DNA from: a virus
Strand: one strand, 5' to 3'
UHGV virus genome: UHGV-1356089
DNA: 39,456 bases
The notes under the pieces were generated by a model. It worked only from the letters and a program-made list of their open reading frames with translations. It was not told where the DNA came from and did no database searches. Shown in pieces: positions 1 through 24,686 of this stretch (positions within the stretch are counted from its first letter, which is position 1; each line of letters starts with the position of its first letter). The translations under genes were made by a program, and so were the position numbers.

Positions 1-855
1 TCAAAACTTCAGTCCTATCGTGATGAGCTTGTTCGCAATGCTGGTCCTGATGGTCCGGTAAATCTGGATTTGAAGCAATTAAGCGATCTGCGCAGCCAGT
101 TCAGAATGGATGTGAAGGGTGAGCGACCAGTGTTACCAAACCGTTCCGATGCTGCCATTCAGCGCGTTTACAAGGCAATGACCGACGATATCAATGGTGC
201 CATTGGTCAGAATCTTGGCAACGATACTCTCCGTAAATATCAGCAGGCCAATGCCGTCTACGCTGACGAAGCGGCGAAACTAAAGAATACCATGCTGAAG
301 AATGTTCTCATGAAAGGCGACCTGACGCCGGAAGTTGTCAACAACATGCTATTCAGCAAGAACAAATCGGAAATTAAGACGCTGTATAACTCAGTTGGTC
401 GTGTTGGCAGGGCGCAAATGCGCAATGGCATCATTGGAAAGGCGATGGAGAAATCAGGTGGTTCCCCTGATCAGTTCCTTCGACAGCTTAACATCCTGCA
501 AAACCAGACTGGCATCACATTTAAGGGGCAGGACGCTGCTTATCTGAAAGGATTGAAAAACTACCTGCAATCCACGCAGCAGGCTGCAAAAGCGGCAGTA
601 ACAACACCAACAGGGCAGCAAACCATCCCGTTCATTATCGGGTATGGGACAGCAATGAACCCGGCGACAACTGGCGCAGCGGTAAGCTACGGACTTCTTA
701 CTCGCGCCTATGAGAGCGAACCATTCAGAAATGCAATGCTCCGAATGGCAAACACACCACGCGGATCGACAGCGTTTGAGAAAGCCATGCAGCAAGCGCA
801 AAAAGCGATTAATGCACTGACGCAGGGTGCTAAGTCTGATTCGTTGTCAGAATAG
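1..855 (+). CDS. DNA ejection/injection protein, gp16-like, 3' part (5' end lies beyond the window start; in frame with 38314..39456 if the molecule is circular)
   Basis: Frame 1 is open from base 1 to the stop at 853-855; sits where P22-like phages place the last ejection protein, before the tailspike region; the ORF at the right edge is in the same phase. Confidence 0.55.
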   Translation, partial: SKLQSYRDELVRNAGPDGPVNLDLKQLSDLRSQFRMDVKGERPVLPNRSDAAIQRVYKAMTDDINGAIGQNLGNDTLRKYQQANAVYADEAAKLKNTMLKNVLMKGDLTPEVVNNMLFSKNKSEIKTLYNSVGRVGRAQMRNGIIGKAMEKSGGSPDQFLRQLNILQNQTGITFKGQDAAYLKGLKNYLQSTQQAAKAAVTTPTGQQTIPFIIGYGTAMNPATTGAAVSYGLLTRAYESEPFRNAMLRMANTPRGSTAFEKAMQQAQKAINALTQGAKSDSLSE

Positions 856-945: not shown

Positions 946-1431
946 TTATCTGATGTTACTGCTACTGTTGCATGTTACCGCGTTTCCAAATCCTGAATTG
1001 CAGTTTGTATATGTGTCAACGCGTGTTGGGTAAGGTTGAGTTATAACAGGCTGGCGCGCTTTTTGCTCGATCGCTTGCATTGTGTTTACAGCCTGATAAT
1101 TCAATAAAGCCTGCTGGAATGCTTGGCTTTGTGCTATTTGTTGGGCTTGTTCTTGGCTTTGTAATTGAACATAAAGATTCTGAAGCTCAAGTCTTGCCTG
1201 TGCGTCACTTATCTTGCCTTCATCGACACCTTGCCCGAGCATCTTTGCAGCAAGGACATACAGCTTAGGTGTTGGTGCTGATGCCATGCGTGAGTCGTTC
1301 TTCACACTGGCATCAAGGCAATTAGCCATATCGCTAAGCTTTTGATAGCGTTGTTCGCAACTTGCTTGATAGTCACTTACTTTTGCGCACCCAGCCAGCA
1401 GAAGCGGGATAATTAACAGTGATTTTTTCAT
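946..1431 (-). CDS. Predicted lipoprotein (signal peptide with lipobox LLAGC, Q-rich body); accessory gene
   Basis: N-terminus MKKSLLIIPLLLAGC when started at the ATG at 1431; AAGGAGAG RBS about 8 nt upstream; ORF-track ORF 946..1482 trimmed to this start. Confidence 0.6.
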   Translation of the reverse strand: MKKSLLIIPLLLAGCAKVSDYQASCEQRYQKLSDMANCLDASVKNDSRMASAPTPKLYVLAAKMLGQGVDEGKISDAQARLELQNLYVQLQSQEQAQQIAQSQAFQQALLNYQAVNTMQAIEQKARQPVITQPYPTRVDTYTNCNSGFGNAVTCNSSSNIR

Positions 1432-1465
1432 ATAATTAACTCTCCTTAGTTTTGCGCAGGATACC

Positions 1466-1831
1466 ATGAAAAAAGTTAACATTGGAAACGTACCAAAGAT
1501 GCTCGTACCGCTCTTTGAGAGCGGTACGGTTGTGTTTTGCAGAGACTTTCCAGAATGGCAACGCCTGCATCAAAAACTTGGCGTGGACGTGCAGGACTCG
1601 GATGCCAACGGAGCGTCTCATACAATGAGCAGCGAGAATGGTGTTTTGCATGTGATAGGTGTGTTCAATGGCAAACTATCTACTATTGCCCATGAGTGCG
1701 CTCACATGGCATTCGATATCTGCTCAAGGGTAGGTGTTGATGTTGAACCAGGAAGAGCCAACGAGACTTACTGCTACTTAATGAGCAGGCTTGTTGAGTT
1801 CTGCGAGAGACATATCAAAAAGCCGGAGTGA
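1466..1831 (+). CDS. Hypothetical protein with HExxH motif (possible small zinc metallopeptidase-like protein)
   Basis: 121-aa ORF with AGGA 5 nt upstream of the ATG; HECAH at residues 76-80 (nt 1691-1705); no competing long ORF on the minus strand. Confidence 0.45.
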   Translation: MKKVNIGNVPKMLVPLFESGTVVFCRDFPEWQRLHQKLGVDVQDSDANGASHTMSSENGVLHVIGVFNGKLSTIAHECAHMAFDICSRVGVDVEPGRANETYCYLMSRLVEFCERHIKKPE

Positions 1832-1844
1832 CCCGGCTTGATTA

Positions 1845-2024
1845 TTACTTTTTGCTGTCTGGAGTTCGCTTATCCAATACCCAGCCATGACCTGGCTTTG
1901 TTGTTGGCGGAAGCCTTTCGTTGTCCTTGACGGTGGCAAAATTGTCTTTCTTACCGCCGCGCGGGCCAACTTCTTGGTATATTCCGCCGTTTTTTCCTGT
2001 GTTTTCACCTGGTTTTTTCGCCAT
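1845..2024 (-). CDS. Small basic hypothetical protein (59 aa)
   Basis: ORF-track ORF trimmed to the internal ATG at 2024 (MAKKPGEN...) which has a GAGGT RBS 7 nt upstream; Lys/Gly/Pro-rich. Confidence 0.45.
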   Translation of the reverse strand: MAKKPGENTGKNGGIYQEVGPRGGKKDNFATVKDNERLPPTTKPGHGWVLDKRTPDSKK

Positions 2025-2115
2025 GATATACCTCAACATACACCCGTTATTGGGCGATTAAATATTGATCTCATTTTATGAGTAGTCAATATGGTCCAAA
2101 AAAGGCAAAAATTAA

Positions 2116-2137
2116 CCCGCCATCAGGTGGGTTTTTT
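2116..2137 (+). terminator. Rho-independent terminator-like hairpin (CCCGCC-ATCA-GGTGGG then T6); the reverse complement is also followed by a T-rich run
   Basis: 6-bp stem with one G-U pair, 4-nt loop, TTTTTT; overlaps the mnt stop codon. Confidence 0.5.
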
Positions 2138-2374
2138 GTACAAATCCTTCAGCGTATCAAACACCATCTTCTTAACAAGTTCAGACTGCTCATCAGCGAT
2201 GCGTTCCGCATCGTCTCGATAGCCTGAAATTTTGGATGGCTTTGATACAGCATCAGTCACTATCTGAACTAATTCAGAATTAAGAGAGCGGCCATTGGAT
2301 TTGGCTCGCTGTTTTAGTTTTTCCTTTAATTCGTAAGGTAGCCGCAGATTAAATTGCGGGTCATCTCTTCCCAT
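2123..2374 (-). CDS. mnt: Mnt repressor (ribbon-helix-helix, Arc/Mnt family)
   Basis: 83 aa; MGRDDPQFNLRLPYELKEKLK...ADEQSELVKKMVFDTLKDLYKKPT closely matches P22 Mnt as I remember it. Confidence 0.8.
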   Translation of the reverse strand: MGRDDPQFNLRLPYELKEKLKQRAKSNGRSLNSELVQIVTDAVSKPSKISGYRDDAERIADEQSELVKKMVFDTLKDLYKKPT

Positions 2375-2437
2375 TCTTGATGCCTCGCTTTTGTGAGTGG
2401 ATCGGCATCTTATTATCTGCTGGTTGCATCCTCAATA

Positions 2438-2452
2438 AGACCACAGTGGTCT
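2438..2452. promoter_or_regulatory. Candidate Mnt operator: perfect 15-bp palindrome AGACCAC-A-GTGGTCT
   Basis: Perfect inverted repeat in the 146-bp gap between mnt (minus) and the tailspike gene (plus); resembles the GTCCAC/GTGGAC-type symmetry of the P22 mnt operator. Confidence 0.5.
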
Positions 2453-2520
2453 CTTTGTTTGATTAATAATGCATCACCGTAGCCATGCTGCGGCGATTCC
2501 TTGTATCTGGAGCAAATTAA

Positions 2521-4995
2521 ATGACAGACATTACAGCCAATGTTGTAGTGAGTATGCCTTCGCAACTCTTCACTATGGCGCGTTCTTTTAAAGCCGTAGC
2601 CAATGGCAAAATTTATATCGGTAAAATTGACACTGACCCGGTAAATCCTGAAAACCAGATTCAGGTTTATGTAGAGAACGAAGACGGTTCTCACGTTCCT
2701 GTTTCGCAACCAATCATCATTAACGCTGCTGGTTATCCGGTATATAACGGACAGATTGCCAAATTCGTAACTGAGCAAGGCCATTCTATGGCTGTTTATG
2801 ATGCGTATGGTGCACAGCAGTTCAAATTCCCAAATGTGCTGAAGTATGACCCCGATCAGCTACGGCAGCAATTAGAAGATCCAGATGGCGCTAAAAAATA
2901 TCCTGAGTTGCAGATAGCACGATGGAGAGATTGTGGAGATGTTAGAGGTTGGGGAGCAAAAATAGATGGGGTAACAGATGATTCAGATGCTTTTATTAAA
3001 GCTTTAAACTCTGGAAGGTCGGTTATAACAATTCCTGAAGGAATATGCATCATCAAGAAGAATATTAACATTCCTGAAGGGTGTTCACTGGTTGGATCTG
3101 GCATTGATTATTGGGATACATATAGACCAGCGCCTGAAAGATTATTAAAAAGTTGGAGTAAAGGAACCCATCTTGTATTTACTGGTGATGGAGAAAAAAA
3201 CAAATATTTTTTTAACATCTCTAATGAAAGACCGGTTAAAATTGTTGAAGGGATATCTTGTAAGTTCACTGAGTTTACGAATGAAGATTCTGTAGGTGTT
3301 ACTCCTGCTACACCAAAAGCCATGAGCGTAGCTGTTAGTATCAACAGGGCATCACAGTTACGCAATCTGAGAATAATGGTAAGTAAAAATGGTATTGAAG
3401 GATACAATAACCCTGATTCTTATTCATTGGGTGATAACTGGGATATAGGGTTGCATGTATACGATAGCTGTGATTCAGTTATTGATAACGTACAGATTGT
3501 CGGCTATTGGAGGGTAAAAGGACTACTACTGACAGAAAATGACGGGAGCCTTTCAATGAAGGGAAATCCTGAAAAAACGCACTTTAATAACGTTTATGTA
3601 CAGTCAGGAATCGCGATAAGGAATAGCCCTCAGATTGATCTTGTAAGTAATACTGAAAGCTCAGTGACATTTAAACATAAAAAGTCGATGAGAATAACTT
3701 CAGTTAAACAGTTTAAAATTGCTGGCAGTGAATCAGTATATACGTATTCAGATGCATCATTTGATGGAACTAATATCACACTATCTGGTATTTCTCCTGA
3801 AATACAAGGTTCAATAAGTGTAATCAGGTTTCCGTCAATTGGTAATAATTTTAGTGGGACTGTTTTTGAGAATACAGTAGCCACTACTCTTGATCATACA
3901 TCAGGTAAGCCATCAGAATACTTTGGCCTTCCTGCATCCTTTGCATTAGAGATTGATGGTTTCCCTGTTCGTAATTTAAGGCTTGATAAATTCAAAGCTC
4001 AAACTACCTTTGATAAAGGAAATTGCATTTTTGGTGATTGCCGTGATGTTAAAATCACATCATCTGAGTTTGAAAATGGAATTATGATTGCGTATAACCT
4101 GACCGAGACTCATGGTTATACAGGAAATCTTAGATTTTTTGCTTCTGATCTTCAGAGCAGCGTTAACACAAGCGAGTTTAAACCAAGAGACGCATTTGTA
4201 GACAATAGACAAATAAAAACGGAGTTTACTGATGGTTCTTTCATTATAAAGAACTGGAGGCCTACAGATACAAAAATACAATGGTCGTCTGGAGTGGATG
4301 CTATTGTTCTTAGAGAGTCACCTGACGAACAATCAAACGGAAATATTTACGGGTATCACATTGATGGTAAAAGATGGATTAATGTTAGTGGATATAACAA
4401 AGATATAAATATTTCATCAAGAAACTTAAGCGTAAAAAACCATAGTGATGACTCCGCAGTTATTAATATATTCGGCGACTCTGGAAATATTGCCATTAAA
4501 GGTAATTTTTCACCAATTGTTGATAACAGCAAATCTCTTGGTGCACCATCATTTAGATGGGCTCAGATTTATTCTGCATCTGGGACTATAAGCACATCAG
4601 ATGAAACACTTAAAACAATATATGACATTACTCAGGCAGAGCGTGATGCTGCGCTGGAAATAAAGGGAATTATATGCAAGTTCAGGTTTAATGAGTCGAT
4701 TAATTTTAAAGGATTGGAGTTATCAAGGTATCATTTTGGAGTTGGCGCTCAAACCGTAGGGGATATTCTTAGAAAGCATGGTTTAAACCCTGAGCAATAT
4801 GCTTTTTGGTGTTACGATGAATGGCCAGACGTATGGGATGAAGAGGTGATAACTGAAGAGAGCACAGATCCTGATACAGGTGAGAAAATTTATTCTCAAT
4901 ATAAAACAGGAAATATGATTCTTGTAAAAAAAGCAGGTGGACGCTACGGAATTCGTTATGACGAATTGGCTATGTTTATATTAATGGCAATGTAG
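2521..4995 (+). CDS. Tailspike: P22-type N-terminal head-binding domain, central probable glycan depolymerase, C-terminal self-cleaving chaperone domain
   Basis: N-terminal ~110 aa match the P22 gp9 head-binding domain; the C-terminus has an [10 protein letters not shown]... segment like the self-cleaving chaperone domains of endosialidases and K5 lyase. Confidence 0.85.
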
Positions 4996-13226: not shown

Positions 13227-13808
13227 ATGAACAACTCATGGTGGCAGGAACTAATGCATTTTTTCCTGCAAGGAATGACACTTAAACAGTTGATTCATAT
13301 GCTAATCATCCTGATCATATTGATTATTGTTATGCCGGTAAGCGTAAAAGAATGGATAAACCTGCATAATCCAGAAATCCTTCCTCATTATTGGATGTAT
13401 TACATCCTGTTGTTCTGCGTTAGCTATGTGCTTAACGGTGTTGTTAATTCCGCTTATCACGCTGTGACTGAAAGAATTGAGGTATCCGCTGCTCAGAAGC
13501 GCAAATCTAAAGAAGAAAAATATGTGCAAGATTTGTTTGATTCGTTAACTCTTGGAGAAAGAGCGTATTTGGCATTCGCTGTAGCCGCGAATAACCAGCT
13601 AAAGACAGAAAAGGGAAGCCCTGAAGCAATCTCATTGCTCGAAAAAGGGCTTCTTATTCGGATACCTTCTGCTACTGGATATCCTGAAATCGACCGTTTT
13701 GTTATCCCGGAACGCTATAGAAATGAGTGCTACATTAGGTTTGCTGGGAAGAAAGACAGTCTTATGGATGAACTTATCGCTCAGGATAAGCATGGCAAAA
13801 ACAAGTAA
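13227..13808 (+). CDS. sieB: SieB-like superinfection exclusion protein
   Basis: 193 aa with hydrophobic N-terminal segments; on the strand opposite the pL operon between ral and the N-like gene, the position of sieB in P22 and lambda. Confidence 0.65.
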   Translation: MNNSWWQELMHFFLQGMTLKQLIHMLIILIILIIVMPVSVKEWINLHNPEILPHYWMYYILLFCVSYVLNGVVNSAYHAVTERIEVSAAQKRKSKEEKYVQDLFDSLTLGERAYLAFAVAANNQLKTEKGSPEAISLLEKGLLIRIPSATGYPEIDRFVIPERYRNECYIRFAGKKDSLMDELIAQDKHGKNK

Positions 13809-23573: not shown

Positions 23574-23777
23574 ATGTACCGTATGGACAAAATCAGAGAA
23601 TGGTTCAGTTACAGCTTCGGAGGACTGACTGCGATGGGTGGCATTCTCTCCCTGAATGACTGGGCTGTCATCATTGGTATTCTTTGTACTGTCGGCACAT
23701 TTGGCATCAACTGGTACTACAAGCGCAAAGAGCGCGAGGACAGATTGAATGGCAATGTCACCGGCACTACGAAATAG
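23574..23777 (+). CDS. Small holin (pinholin-like) with possible dual start
   Basis: 67 aa beginning MYRMDK (two in-frame Met), hydrophobic core, charged C-terminus KRKEREDRL; directly precedes a SAR endolysin. Confidence 0.7.
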
Positions 23778-24252
23778 CGTAATAGCGGCGATAAGTGGCG
23801 GGGCTATTGCTATAGCATCTGTGTTAATCACTGGACCAAGTGGTAACGATGGTCTGGAAGGTGTCAGCTACATACCATACAAAGATATTGTTGGTGTATG
23901 GACTGTATGTCACGGACACACCGGAAAAGACATCATGCTCGGTAAAACGTATACCGAAGCAGAATGCAAAGCTCTCCTGAATAAAGACCTTGCCACGGTC
24001 GCCAGACAAATTAACCCGTACATCAAAGTCGATATACCGGAAACAACGCGCGGCGCTCTTTACTCGTTCGTCTACAACGTGGGGGCTGGCAATTTCAGAA
24101 CATCGACGCTTCTTCGCAAAATCAACCAGGGCGATATCAAGGGCGCATGTGACCAGCTGCGTCGCTGGACATACGCTGGCGGTAAGCAATGGAAAGGGCT
24201 GATGACCCGTCGCGATATTGAGCGTGAAGTCTGTTTGTGGGGGCAGCAATGA
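23749..24252 (+). CDS. SAR endolysin (T4-lysozyme-type muramidase with N-terminal signal-anchor-release segment)
   Basis: N-terminal [22 protein letters not shown] then [22 protein letters not shown]...; closely resembles the phage 21 R endolysin as I recall it. Confidence 0.85.
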
Positions 24253-24686
24253 GCAGGTTAACCGCGATTATCTCCGCTCTGGTTATTTGCATCATCGTCT
24301 GCCTGTCATGGGCTGTTAATCATTACCGTAATAACGCCATCGCCTACAAAGAGCAGCGCGATAAGGCCGCATCCATCATCGCTGACATGCAGAAGCGTCA
24401 ACGTGATGTAGCAGAACTCGACGCCAGATACACAAAGGAGCTTGCTGATGCTAACGCGACTATCGAAAGTCTCCGTGCTGATGTTTCTGCTGGTCGTAAG
24501 CGCCTGCAAGTCGCCGCCACCTGTGCAAAGTCAACGACCGGAGCCAGCGGCATGGGCGATGGAGAAAGCCCAAGACTTACAGCAGATGCTGAACTCAATT
24601 ATTACCGTCTCAGAAGTGGAATCGACAGGATAACCGCGCAGGTTAACTACCTGCAGGAGTACATCAGGACTCAGTGCCTGAAATAA
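24249..24686 (+). CDS. Rz: Rz inner-membrane spanin
   Basis: [34 protein letters not shown]... is highly similar to lambda Rz; ORF-track start trimmed to the ATG at 24249. Confidence 0.85.
24442..24633 (+). CDS. Rz1: Rz1 outer-membrane lipoprotein spanin, embedded in Rz in the +1 frame
   Basis: Lipobox LLVVSAC followed by a proline-rich segment [13 protein letters not shown]; lies entirely inside Rz. Confidence 0.75.

What the first reader, a model, noticed from the sequence alone, without database searches (positions are those of the whole stretch)
946..2120. Accessory cluster between the ejection genes and mnt: lipoprotein, HExxH protein and small basic protein
Where P22 carries sieA there is instead a minus-strand lipoprotein (lipobox LLAGC, Q-rich body), a plus-strand 121-aa ORF with an HECAH motif, and a 59-aa basic protein. 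The lipoprotein and HExxH starts are only 34 bp apart and divergent, so promoters must lie inside the neighbouring coding sequence. A prophage-encoded lipoprotein is a classic way to block superinfecting phage at the envelope, and a tiny HExxH protein could be a protease-like regulator or toxin. Neither matches a family I can name.
Basis: partly seen in the sequence, partly recalled or inferred. Interest (0 to 1): 0.7.

Follow-up and report, generated by a model that had tools for sequence, protein, structure and literature searches.

The report
Lipoprotein swapped into P22 sieA slot
In this E. coli P22-like prophage an uncharacterised outer-membrane-type lipoprotein gene sits exactly where phage P22 keeps its exclusion gene sieA, while the other two genes flagged (a tiny zinc-protease-like protein and a 59-residue basic protein) are the already catalogued but unstudied P22/HK620 genes hkcC and 59a.

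Summary
All three ORFs are real and under purifying selection. The framing is only partly right. The interval is the left part of the known hypervariable "ant moron", between ejection gene 16 and the tailspike gene of P22-like phages.

- **Lipoprotein (946-1431, minus):** this is the only gene that replaces sieA. It belongs to PHROG 6067 (function unknown). It follows the same Shine-Dalgarno sequence and leader that precede sieA in P22. In every relative examined it lies next to gene 16, often in the mnt operon, and never together with sieA. I infer a prophage-expressed envelope protection factor, most likely superinfection exclusion. Nothing here tests that.
- **HExxH ORF (1466-1831, plus):** this is hkcC, 99% identical in P22 and HK620. 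It is a minimal zincin with H76, E77, H80 and E100 invariant in 122 relatives. It is always co-oriented with late genes.
- **59-aa ORF (1845-2024, minus):** this is P22 gene 59a, a YjzC-family protein with its own conserved promoter and terminator.

hkcC and 59a usually travel together as a convergent cassette, including in siphovirus tail operons, but they can be separated.

Overall this is a modest finding: a new variant inside a known variable region, plus two testable leads.

The parts
70..855 (+). 3' part of the gene-16-type DNA-ejection (E-protein) gene. It is context only, and its end is the left border of the accessory region.
   Evidence: phrog_770 'DNA transfer protein', E 7e-106. 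It is 98% identical to phage Gally gp13-like injection protein.
946..1431 (-). 161-aa lipoprotein gene (PHROG 6067). It has a predicted periplasmic helical-bundle domain (residues about 18-100), a Q-rich helix and a C-terminal Cys-loop hairpin.
   Evidence: (93 homologues across Enterobacterales).
1387..1431 (-). Signal peptide and lipobox (MKKSLLIIPLLLAG|C). The Cys15 codon is at 1387-1389. Residue +2 is Ala and +3 is Lys, so there is no Asp retention signal.
   Evidence: Read directly from the sequence. C15 is invariant, and L12, G14 and A16 are at least 90% conserved in 30 homologues.
946..1050 (-). C-terminal module of about 34 aa (Pro-rich linker plus C144-x9-C154 loop). It recombines independently of the N-terminal domain.
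   Evidence: P0039 vs P0067 are 96% identical in the N part and 24% in the C part. P0102 vs P0108 are 58% and 93%. Sequence classes ending ...NSSSNIR and ...SY are seen.
1432..1496 (-). Leader with the SD (AAGGAG, plus-strand 1443-1448) and the sequence equivalent to P22 P_sieA. It overlaps the first 10 codons of hkcC.
   Evidence: Homology to P22 starts at the SD. P_sieA is annotated in AF527608 and NC_002371. The P22 sequence is confirmed by a published primer. The segment TCATG(A/G)TATCCTG..AAAACTAAGGAG is conserved upstream of the lipoprotein in three different arrangements.
1466..1831 (+). hkcC: a 121-aa cytoplasmic minimal zincin-like protein (PHROG 1365). HECAH is encoded at 1691-1705 and the candidate third-ligand Glu100 at 1763-1765.
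   Evidence: AF2 pLDDT 88; HK620 annotation hkcC.
1820..1839 (.). G+C-rich hairpin AAGCCGG-N6-CCGGCTT, with a T-run on the minus strand. It is the terminator of the 59a/mnt transcript ('t mnt' in P22). It encodes the KKPE C-terminus of hkcC.
   Evidence: It is conserved in 8 divergent contexts.
1845..2024 (-). Gene 59a (P22 orf59a): a 59-aa basic protein of the YjzC family.
   Evidence: 98% identical to P22 orf59a. phrog_3202 at E 7e-31. Pfam YjzC scores 19.4 bits, below the 25-bit cutoff. More distant homologues carry PF14168 or are named YjzC.
2061..2089 (-). Sigma-70-type promoter of 59a: TTGACT-17-AATATT.
   Evidence: Found by the scan. TTGA and AATATT are invariant in 7 contexts whose flanks are unrelated.
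2041..2056 (-). Small stem-loop at the 5' end of the predicted 59a leader (CGCCC-AATAA-CGGGTG).
   Evidence: The stem GCCC/GGGY is replaced by GCTC/GAGC in two relatives. This is weak evidence.
2104..2133 (.). Hairpin with T-runs directly after the mnt stop codon. It separates mnt from the 59a promoter.
2123..2374 (-). mnt (Arc/Mnt-family maintenance repressor). It is the right border of the interval. No arc or ant gene follows, and the tailspike gene starts at 2521.
   Evidence: Pfam Arc at 2.8e-22 and Repressor_Mnt at 2.2e-18. ORF list.

Best explanation
The interval is the left half of the 'ant moron', the hypervariable accessory region between ejection gene 16 and tailspike gene 9 of P22-like phages. 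It holds two independently mobile modules.

**(1) The lipoprotein gene**
- Shown: it replaces the sieA ORF precisely. It keeps the SD and leader that precede sieA in P22, and the sequence annotated as P_sieA. In relatives it is always next to gene 16, is often directly downstream of mnt on the same strand, and is never found with sieA.
- Inferred: it is made in the lysogen. It is lipidated at Cys15 and sorted to the inner leaflet of the outer membrane, because residue +2 is Ala. It exposes a disulfide-bonded helical bundle and a swappable C-terminal Cys-loop to the periplasm. It protects the lysogen at the envelope.
- Most likely mechanism: it interferes with the outer-membrane or periplasmic stage of DNA delivery by P22-like phages. 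That would make it a functional analogue of SieA, not a homologue.

**(2) hkcC plus 59a, both also present in P22 and HK620**
- hkcC is a cytoplasmic minimal zincin (HExxH plus Glu). It has no promoter of its own that is conserved. It is always co-oriented with late genes. I infer that it is translated from late read-through transcripts and cleaves an unknown host or phage protein.
- 59a is a self-contained moron made of promoter, YjzC-like gene and terminator. I infer that it is expressed from the prophage.
For: **Region identity**
- It lies between a gp16-type gene, mnt and the tailspike gene.
- The literature describes this region as a highly variable moron. [quoted passage not shown]

**Junction**
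- Window-to-P22 homology begins at the SD upstream of the lipoprotein and sieA start codons.
- P_sieA is annotated there.
- The same leader precedes the lipoprotein in three different arrangements.
- Published yfp fusions show sieA transcription in lysogens and, more strongly, in carrier cells (PMC4697819).

**Lipoprotein context**
- It is adjacent to and convergent with gp16 in E. coli, Salmonella phage VSe13, Proteus phage Brookers, Serratia, Tatumella, Yersinia and Morganella.
- Of 80 IMG/VR contigs, 76 have the convergent gp16-like ORF and none has SieA. In at least 39, mnt is the nearest identified gene upstream on the same strand, and 8 more have mnt-X-lipoprotein.
- An overlapping mnt-X-lipoprotein arrangement is seen in E. 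coli FDAARGOS_772.
- The lipobox and four further cysteines are conserved.
- The C-terminal module swaps independently.

**hkcC**
- H76, E77, H80 and E100 are invariant in 122 relatives that are 22-43% identical to it (one is 73%).
- The AF2 model has pLDDT 88 with β-β-α-β-β-α-α topology.
- A profile search against PDB sequences returns zincins as its nine best, borderline hits.
- BFVD fold matches have TM 0.6-0.8. The named ones are 'SprT-like' and 'Metalloprotease'.
- It is co-oriented with late genes in P22-like phages and in siphovirus tail operons. A roughly 39% identical paralogue in ST64T sits between the lysis and terminase genes.
- No conserved upstream promoter was found.

**59a**
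- The promoter, terminator and gene are conserved in 7-8 unrelated flanks.

Purifying selection acts on all three genes.
Against: - No experiment or transcript data for this prophage were available. Expression and exclusion are inferred from position and from P22 sieA.
- The lipoprotein has no detectable similarity to any known exclusion protein.
- Its structure model is poor (pLDDT 61), and its fold matches are generic helical bundles.
- Its type does not track the neighbouring gp16 type, so no link to a specific ejection protein is visible.
- The same slot also holds Rap1a-type immunity domains in relatives. Protection against something other than phage is therefore possible.
- The exact -35/-10 of P_sieA could not be resolved from sequence. 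The consensus scan did not call it.
Confidence: 0.55

Rival explanations
1. The lipoprotein is a lysogenic-conversion factor that does not act on phages. It could be a periplasmic immunity protein against T6SS or bacteriocin effectors, or a Bor/TraT-like surface or serum-resistance factor that benefits the host.
For: - In relatives the same slot carries Rap1a-family (T6SS immunity) domains beside or instead of it.
- Its type is independent of the resident phage's gp16.
- It occurs in 186 of 5426 complete E. coli genomes, including clinical isolates.
Against: - Every context examined is the gene 16 to tailspike slot of a P22-like phage.
- It shares promoter, leader and position with sieA and is never found with sieA.
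- It has no hit to Rap1a or any other immunity family.
Confidence: 0.25
2. hkcC and 59a are one functional two-gene system, such as a protease with a small inhibitor, partner or substrate, acting as a defence, counter-defence or addiction-like module. They are not two independent genes.
For: - The convergent pair, 5-30 bp apart, is kept in all diverse contexts looked at. These include P22-like phages of E. coli, Salmonella and Morganella, siphovirus tail operons of Rosenbergiella and Klebsiella, metagenomic phages, and the 44%-identical homologue P0032.
- The terminator of 59a is built into the last codons of hkcC.
Against: - They are separate transcription units on opposite strands. 59a has its own promoter and hkcC has none that is conserved.
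- 11 of 80 near-identical P22-like contigs keep hkcC but lack 59a, with homology ending at window 1853.
- YjzC-like genes occur without hkcC.
- hkcC paralogues in ST64T and L have no 59a neighbour.
- Physical linkage alone could explain co-travel over short evolutionary distances.
Confidence: 0.2
3. The lipoprotein serves the phage's own lytic cycle, for example as a spanin-like lysis component or a factor that stops progeny from adsorbing to debris, rather than protecting the lysogen.
For: - Outer-membrane lipoproteins with Pro-rich segments and disulfides are typical of o-spanins.
- T5 Llp acts during lytic growth (general knowledge; also mentioned).
Against: - The window has its own lysis cassette, with an endolysin (23749-24252) and an Rz-like spanin (24237-24686).
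- The lipoprotein gene is antisense to the late operon. It is linked to mnt or P_sieA, which are lysogenic transcription units.
Confidence: 0.04
4. One or more of the three ORFs are chance ORFs in an intergenic regulatory region. P22's reference annotation treats the hkcC stretch as holding only a promoter and a terminator.
For: NC_002371 and AF527608 annotate no CDS over hkcC. Only 32 clustered homologues were found by the word-indexed search.
Against: - Third-position changes dominate (for example 34/23/72 by codon position), and pN is far below pS for all three genes.
- There are 524 family representatives with the catalytic residues invariant.
- The AF2 model is confident.
- SD-like sequences are present upstream in all contexts.
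- HK620 and PGAP annotate the ORF.
Confidence: 0.02

Closest known systems
P22 SieA (superinfection exclusion, Leavitt et al. 2024, PMC10883804)
   Same: Same genomic slot, convergent with gene 16. Same upstream SD and leader and the same annotated promoter region. Prophage-side orientation. Confined to P22-like phages. The two are mutually exclusive in the 160 contigs examined.
   Different: SieA is a polytopic inner-membrane protein with a cytoplasmic FxRYPxEAxxFNK motif. This protein has one cleavable lipoprotein signal, no other hydrophobic segment, no such motif and no sequence similarity. It would have to act from the outer membrane or periplasm, not at the inner membrane.
Exclusion lipoproteins T5 Llp and Cor of phi80/N15/HK022; TP-J34 Ltp
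   Same: These are small phage-encoded lipoproteins that block entry of related phages at the envelope (general knowledge; Ltp is cited). The predicted localisation and the conserved disulfides here are compatible with that mode of action.
   Different: There is no detectable homology: it matches only phrog_6067 and nothing in Pfam, NCBIfam or PADLOC. Llp and Cor target FhuA for siphoviruses. P22-like phages use O-antigen, a tail needle and ejection proteins. The target here is unknown.
hkcC of HK620 / P22 and gene 59a of P22
   Same: These are the same genes. hkcC is 99.2% identical in protein sequence in HK620, where it is annotated, and in P22, where it is unannotated in the RefSeq record. 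59a is 98% identical. The literature lists them as genes of unknown function in the ant moron.
   Different: Nothing differs structurally. What is added here is the zincin signature and fold, the late-operon co-orientation, the separate 59a transcription unit, and the cassette's presence in siphovirus tail operons.
Minimal zincins: SprT-like family (PF10263) and gluzincin-type metallopeptidases
   Same: An HExxH helix is followed about 20 residues later by an invariant Glu in the next helix (NExxxY). A β-sheet precedes the active-site helix. Fold matches to phage 'SprT-like' proteins have TM about 0.7. Borderline profile hits go only to zincins.
YjzC family (PF14168)
   Same: About 60 aa, Gly-rich and basic, with a conserved GxYxEVGxRGG...LPPT...W pattern. 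Sources name close homologues YjzC, and distant homologues carry the Pfam domain.
   Different: The direct Pfam score is below the gathering cutoff (19.4 vs 25 bits). The family itself has no known function (one search found no relevant literature).

Membership tests
Bacterial lipoproteins (SPase II / Lgt substrates) | N-terminal positively charged n-region, a hydrophobic h-region, and a lipobox [LVI][ASTVI][GAS]C. | tested here: met
   The sequence reads MKK-SLLIIPLL-LAG-C15. C15 is invariant, and L12 and G14 are at least 90% conserved in 30 homologues.
Bacterial lipoproteins (SPase II / Lgt substrates) | Actual lipidation, and sorting according to the +2 rule (Asp at +2 retains the protein in the inner membrane). 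| not testable with these tools
   Residue +2 is Ala in 29 of 30 homologues (Thr in P0113) and never Asp. The E. coli rule therefore predicts an outer-membrane location. Globomycin, palmitate-labelling or fractionation experiments are needed.
SieA superinfection-exclusion proteins (types A-C) | Polytopic inner-membrane protein homologous to P22 SieA, with the FxRYPxEAxxFNK motif. | tested here: not met
   No BLAST hit to P22 SieA and no motif in any lipoprotein locus. Only the signal peptide is hydrophobic.
SieA superinfection-exclusion proteins (types A-C) | Blocks DNA entry of P22-like phages when expressed from the prophage. | not testable with these tools
   Only position and promoter sharing are shown.
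Known phage exclusion or conversion lipoproteins (Cor, Llp, Bor) and catalogued defence proteins | Sequence membership in the corresponding PHROG, Pfam, NCBIfam or PADLOC models. | tested here: not met
   Only phrog_6067 (unknown function) matches. There is no Pfam, NCBIfam or PADLOC hit above noise and no PDB sequence relative.
'ant moron' / immI-adjacent accessory region of P22-like phages | [quoted passage not shown] | tested here: met
   gp16 C-terminus at 70-855, mnt at 2123-2374, tailspike at 2521-4995. Definition. arc and ant are absent here.
Zincin metallopeptidases (HExxH; gluzincin subtype) | HExxH within an α-helix, with both His and the Glu conserved. | tested here: met
   H76, E77 and H80 are invariant in 122 relatives that are 22-43% identical (one 73%). 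The motif lies in predicted helix 71-88.
Zincin metallopeptidases (HExxH; gluzincin subtype) | Third metal ligand Glu on the following helix, about 18-30 residues after the motif. | tested here: met
   E100 is invariant, 20 residues after H80, at the start of helix 100-116 within the NExxxY pattern. Its ligand role is inferred, not shown.
Zincin metallopeptidases (HExxH; gluzincin subtype) | Zincin fold resembling solved members. | tested here: inconclusive
Zincin metallopeptidases (HExxH; gluzincin subtype) | Zinc binding and peptidase activity. | not testable with these tools
   Needs purified protein, metal analysis and an E77A control.
SprT-like family (Pfam PF10263) | Match to the family HMM. 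| tested here: not met
   No hit for the window protein at E up to 1. Only 3 of 122 relatives hit it, with a best E of 1e-4.
YjzC family (Pfam PF14168) | Match to the family HMM at the gathering score. | tested here: inconclusive
   Direct score is 19.4 bits against a 25-bit cutoff, E 0.0013, covering profile positions 8-54 of 55. Homologues at 49-60% identity carry PF14168, and UniRef names closer ones 'YjzC family protein'. Membership is therefore supported transitively.
Moron (independent promoter-gene-terminator unit inside a late operon) | Own promoter and terminator flanking a gene that is dispensable for the operon, and present or absent among relatives. | tested here: met
   For 59a, TTGACT-17-AATATT and the terminator hairpin are conserved in unrelated flanks, and the gene is absent in 11 of 80 relatives. 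This rests on sequence patterns only. No transcript data were available.
Type II toxin-antitoxin pair (considered for hkcC/59a) | Co-transcribed adjacent genes with obligate co-occurrence. | tested here: not met
   The genes are convergent and form separate units. hkcC occurs without 59a, and 59a-like genes occur without hkcC.

The most novel reading that the evidence does not exclude
The sieA position of P22-like prophages may be an exchange site where alternative envelope-acting exclusion genes are plugged in behind a shared promoter and leader. On this reading the PHROG 6067 lipoprotein is a new, outer-membrane-anchored exclusion family. It would block the trans-envelope DNA-delivery machinery of P22-like phages from the periplasmic side, and its recombining C-terminal Cys-loop would set specificity.
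Probability: 0.35. Interest if true: 0.6.

Novelty: new variant of a known kind. Interest (0 to 1): 0.4.

Why it matters
**Lipoprotein.** SieA is, per Leavitt et al. 2024, the only studied system that blocks DNA injection by short-tailed phages. Only about a third of sequenced P22-like phages carry it. This lipoprotein occupies the same slot behind the same leader and is present in about 3% of complete E. coli genomes and in at least eight enterobacterial genera. It is an obvious candidate for a second, mechanistically different exclusion system. If it is one, it would give a periplasm-side handle on how the gp7/gp20/gp16 conduit assembles.

**hkcC.** Recognising that P22 and HK620 themselves encode a conserved minimal zincin gives a concrete hypothesis for a gene that has sat unexplained in a model phage for 25 years. 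hkcC is unannotated in the P22 reference record, and its family members always sit inside late operons.

Neither point is surprising enough to rank as a major finding without experiments.

Tried and rejected
- **Literature search for 'hkcC'** returned only unrelated acronyms. Searches for 'orf59a' and 'YjzC' returned nothing functional.
- **The afdb50 fold library** was unavailable.
- **The search for related loci with the 122-sequence alignment** was too diverse to seed. The two successful IMG/VR scans returned only near-identical copies, so they served as context statistics.
- **Terminator-like hairpin at 1503-1529 inside hkcC.** I considered it as an attenuator. It is strong here (-20 kcal/mol), weaker in P22, and absent in divergent homologues. 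It is therefore not a family feature.
- **Lipoprotein as inhibitor of a lytic-transglycosylase domain in gp16.** The local Pfam scan found no SLT domain in six neighbouring gp16 proteins. The idea was dropped.
- **Co-variation of lipoprotein type with the adjacent gp16 C-terminus.** There is none: lipoproteins 98% identical sit next to gp16 proteins only 33% identical.
- **The 104-aa protein between mnt and the lipoprotein in some E. coli as a Rap1a relative.** No similarity was found.
- **Rfam** gave no RNA family in 700-2700.
- **Spanin role** was rejected because a separate Rz-like spanin exists.
- **Toxin-antitoxin reading of hkcC/59a** was rejected on gene organisation and separability.
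Full report
**What is in the sequence**

The window is a circularly permuted genome of a P22-like (Lederbergvirus) prophage. Positions 700-2600 are 100% identical to prophages in E. coli strains 04-00955 and ECE170. The features around the finding are:

| Coordinates | Strand | Feature |
|---|---|---|
| 70-855 | + | 3' end of a gene-16-type ejection protein gene |
| 946-1431 | − | 161-aa ORF (lipoprotein) |
| 1466-1831 | + | 121-aa ORF (HExxH) |
| 1845-2024 | − | 59-aa ORF |
| 2123-2374 | − | mnt |
| 2521-4995 | + | tailspike gene |

There is no arc or ant gene.

- The lipobox is LLAGC, with Cys15.
- The Q-rich stretch has 14 Q in residues 88-127.
- HECAH is encoded at 1691-1705.
- The 59-aa protein has pI 9.9.
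- The divergent start codons are 34 bp apart.

All three ORFs are genuine genes. Against homologues from other genera, synonymous sites are saturated (pS 0.76-0.96) while pN is 0.10-0.38, and third-position changes dominate.

**The comparison with P22 is only partly right**

Megablast shows that P22 is about 96% identical to the window from position 1438 rightwards, through the HExxH ORF, the 59-aa ORF and into mnt.
- P22 contains the same 121-aa ORF with a single amino-acid change, and it contains orf59a.
- The P22 reference records (NC_002371, AF527608) annotate no CDS over the HExxH ORF. They list only 'P sieA' and 't mnt' there.
- HK620 annotates the 99.2%-identical ORF as hkcC.
- Villafane et al. 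[quoted passage not shown] They call the whole gene 16 to gene 9 interval the 'ant moron', with ten types in sixteen genomes. Zaworski et al. 2020 also describe it as very variable.

So only the lipoprotein stands in place of sieA. The interval is a new combination inside a known hypervariable region.

**The lipoprotein: context**

- *Swap junction.* It lies at the gene boundary. Reading the minus strand, window and P22 are collinear through ...TTTTTTCATGGTATCCTG(C/T)... AAAACTAAGGAG and then diverge just before the start codon. A published P22 ΔsieA primer confirms the P22 sequence.
- *Promoter.* P22's annotated P_sieA maps to about 1465-1496, inside the first codons of hkcC.
- *Leader.* The segment TCATG(A/G)TATCCTG..AAAACTAAGGAG also precedes the lipoprotein gene where its upstream neighbour is mnt, or a different plus-strand lipoprotein gene as in phage Gally. 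The leader therefore travels with the gene.
- *Expression of the sieA counterpart.* Published reporter fusions show that sieA is transcribed in lysogens, and more strongly in carrier cells.
- *Family and position.* The family has 93 clustered homologues in Escherichia, Citrobacter, Serratia, Klebsiella, Cronobacter, Yersinia, Pectobacterium, Morganella, Providencia and Tatumella. Every context inspected is the same slot of a P22-like (pro)phage, convergent with gene 16.
- *IMG/VR statistics.* Of 80 contigs carrying it, 76 show the convergent gp16-like ORF and none has a SieA. In at least 39, mnt is the nearest identified gene upstream on the same strand; in the contig inspected (L116) the gap is 76 nt with no obvious terminator. 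Eight have mnt-X-lipoprotein, 10 have the Gally arrangement and 17 have the window's arrangement. In E. coli FDAARGOS_772 the mnt and X genes overlap and the lipoprotein follows 26 bp later.
- *The converse.* Among 80 contigs selected for hkcC, 18 have the lipoprotein, 11 have sieA and none has both.
- *Prevalence.* The gene is in 186 of 5426 complete E. coli genomes. The hkcC-59a cassette is in 132. The window's full combination is in about 13.

**The lipoprotein: protein features**

- The lipobox is conserved. Residue +2 is Ala in 29 of the 30 aligned homologues (Thr in one) and never Asp. By the E. coli sorting rule this predicts an outer-membrane location.
- Four further cysteines are conserved (C25, C38, C144, C154), which fits a periplasmic, disulfide-bonded protein.
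- There is no sequence relationship to SieA, to any annotated PHROG, Pfam, NCBIfam or PADLOC family, or to any solved structure.
- The last 34 or so residues recombine independently of the rest. P0039 and P0067 are 96% identical in the N part and 24% in the C part. P0102 and P0108 are 58% and 93%. This pattern is typical of a specificity module.
- The lipoprotein type does not track the neighbouring gp16 type.

**The lipoprotein: interpretation**

I infer that it is a prophage-expressed, outer-membrane-anchored periplasmic protein that protects the lysogen. Most likely it interferes with entry of P22-like phages. That would make it an analogue of SieA, not a homologue.

The main rival is a non-phage protective role. 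Rap1a-type immunity domains occupy the same slot in relatives. A lysis role is unlikely, because the phage has its own endolysin and Rz-like spanin.

**hkcC (the HExxH protein)**

- The word-indexed search found only 32 clusters. An exhaustive profile search found 524 family representatives at E ≤ 0.001.
- In an alignment of the window protein with 121 of them (22-43% identical to it, one at 73%), the only invariant residues are H76, E77, H80 and E100. That is the zincin motif plus a glutamate 20 residues downstream, as in gluzincins. The cysteines conserved among close relatives are not conserved family-wide.
- AF2 gives a confident model (pLDDT 88, pTM 0.83) with β-β-α-β-β-α-α topology. The motif lies in helix 71-88 and E100 at the start of helix 100-116.
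- All 122 sequences fall in phrog_1365 (function unknown). Three hit Pfam SprT-like weakly.
- The family profile's nine best, borderline PDB sequence hits are all zincins: myroilysin, astacins and a Lys-specific metalloendopeptidase.
- Foldseek against BFVD finds many phage proteins with TM 0.6-0.8. The few that are named are 'SprT-like' or 'Metalloprotease'.
- The protein has no signal peptide or membrane segment.

I therefore file it as zincin-like, with membership of any named family unproven and catalysis untested.

**Expression logic of hkcC and 59a**

- *59a is self-contained.* A TTGACT-17-AATATT promoter lies at 2089-2061. A short leader hairpin follows. A terminator at 1839-1820 has a stem that encodes hkcC's C-terminal KKPE. 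All are conserved in seven to eight contexts whose flanks are otherwise unrelated.
- *hkcC has no conserved upstream promoter*, although SD-like sequences are always present.
- *hkcC is always co-oriented with late genes.* This holds between gene 16 and gene 9 in P22-like phages, and between the tail-chaperone region and the tape-measure gene in siphovirus-type prophages of Rosenbergiella and Klebsiella and in metagenomic phages. A paralogue about 39% identical (Orf-129 of ST64T; also hit in L and ε34) sits between the lysis genes and the terminase in ST64T, and the mEp044 homologue lies just downstream of that phage's lysozyme gene.
- *My inference:* hkcC is translated from late read-through transcripts. 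59a is expressed from the prophage.

**Are hkcC and 59a one system?**

The convergent pair is kept in all diverse contexts, including a 44%-identical homologue. The pairing is not obligate, however:
- 11 of 80 near-identical contigs keep hkcC plus the terminator but carry a different small gene instead of 59a.
- YjzC-like genes occur without hkcC.

This argues against a toxin-antitoxin reading. A looser functional link remains possible at about 0.2.

**59a itself**

It is 98% identical to P22 orf59a and belongs to phrog_3202. It scores just below the Pfam YjzC cutoff (19.4 vs 25 bits). More distant homologues carry PF14168 or are named YjzC. No function is known for that family, and there is no solved relative.

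**Verdict**

The region is ordinary in kind: it is a variant of the ant moron. Two of the three genes are long-catalogued P22/HK620 ORFs.

What is new and testable:
- a candidate second exclusion family sitting behind the sieA leader;
- the recognition that hkcC is a conserved, late-operon-embedded minimal zincin that is missing from the P22 reference annotation;
- the hkcC-59a cassette as a mobile unit shared by podovirus and siphovirus late operons.

No function is demonstrated. Interest is moderate.

Noticed in passing
window 1503-1529 (+): A 12-bp perfect hairpin followed by TTGTGTTTTG lies inside codons 13-22 of hkcC (-20 kcal/mol). It looks like a terminator on the late-operon strand. 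It is weaker in P22 and absent in divergent homologues, so it is lineage-specific. It could modulate late read-through toward the tailspike gene.
   Followed up: partly
window 2375-2520, palindrome AGACCACAGTGGTCT at 2438-2452: The mnt-tailspike intergenic region keeps an operator-like perfect palindrome, although arc and ant are absent. Mnt may therefore control a rightward promoter that now reads directly into the tailspike gene.
   Followed up: no
P22 reference records NC_002371.2 / AF527608.1, 13861-14226 (loci L005, L002): An intact hkcC ORF (121 aa, with the HExxH+E signature) is not annotated as a CDS in either P22 record. HK620 and PGAP-annotated E. coli prophages do annotate it.
   Followed up: yes
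L010 4604-4942 (Tatumella); L015 209-562: Rap1a-family (T6SS immunity) domain proteins occupy the same accessory slot in other P22-like prophages. One lies between mnt and the lipoprotein, and one lies in the sieA position next to hkcC.
   Followed up: partly
L001 3209-3628 (phage Gally GALLYPH_14); L028 3008-3322; L027 2081-2449; L029 3782-3970 and 4380-4604: Other cargo found in this slot in relatives:
- a second, unrelated 139-aa lipoprotein (LLSGC, phrog_6823);
- a 104-aa secreted protein (phrog_19844) co-operonic with mnt and the lipoprotein;
- a 122-aa protein (phrog_2651);
- small membrane proteins.

All are uncharacterised, and most are predicted to be envelope proteins.
   Followed up: partly
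L189 2501-2890 (ST64T orf-129); L190 2501-3085 (mEp044_72): Distant paralogues of hkcC (about 37-39% identical) sit between the lysis genes and the terminase genes of other P22-like and lambda-like phages. They are again co-oriented with the late operon and have no 59a-like neighbour. Some phages (ST160, SE1, ST-32) carry both copies.
   Followed up: partly
window 13227-13808 (+): A 193-aa SieB-family protein (phrog_1301, E 2e-123). The prophage therefore has a sieB-type system even though it lacks sieA.
   Followed up: no
window 2041-2056 (-) and homologous positions in L012, L013, L015, L017, L025: The predicted 5' end of the 59a transcript forms a small stem-loop with an AATA-type loop. The stem changes from GCCC/GGGY to GCTC/GAGC in two relatives, which is one apparent compensatory pair. 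It may be an mRNA-stabilising hairpin or a binding site.
   Followed up: partly
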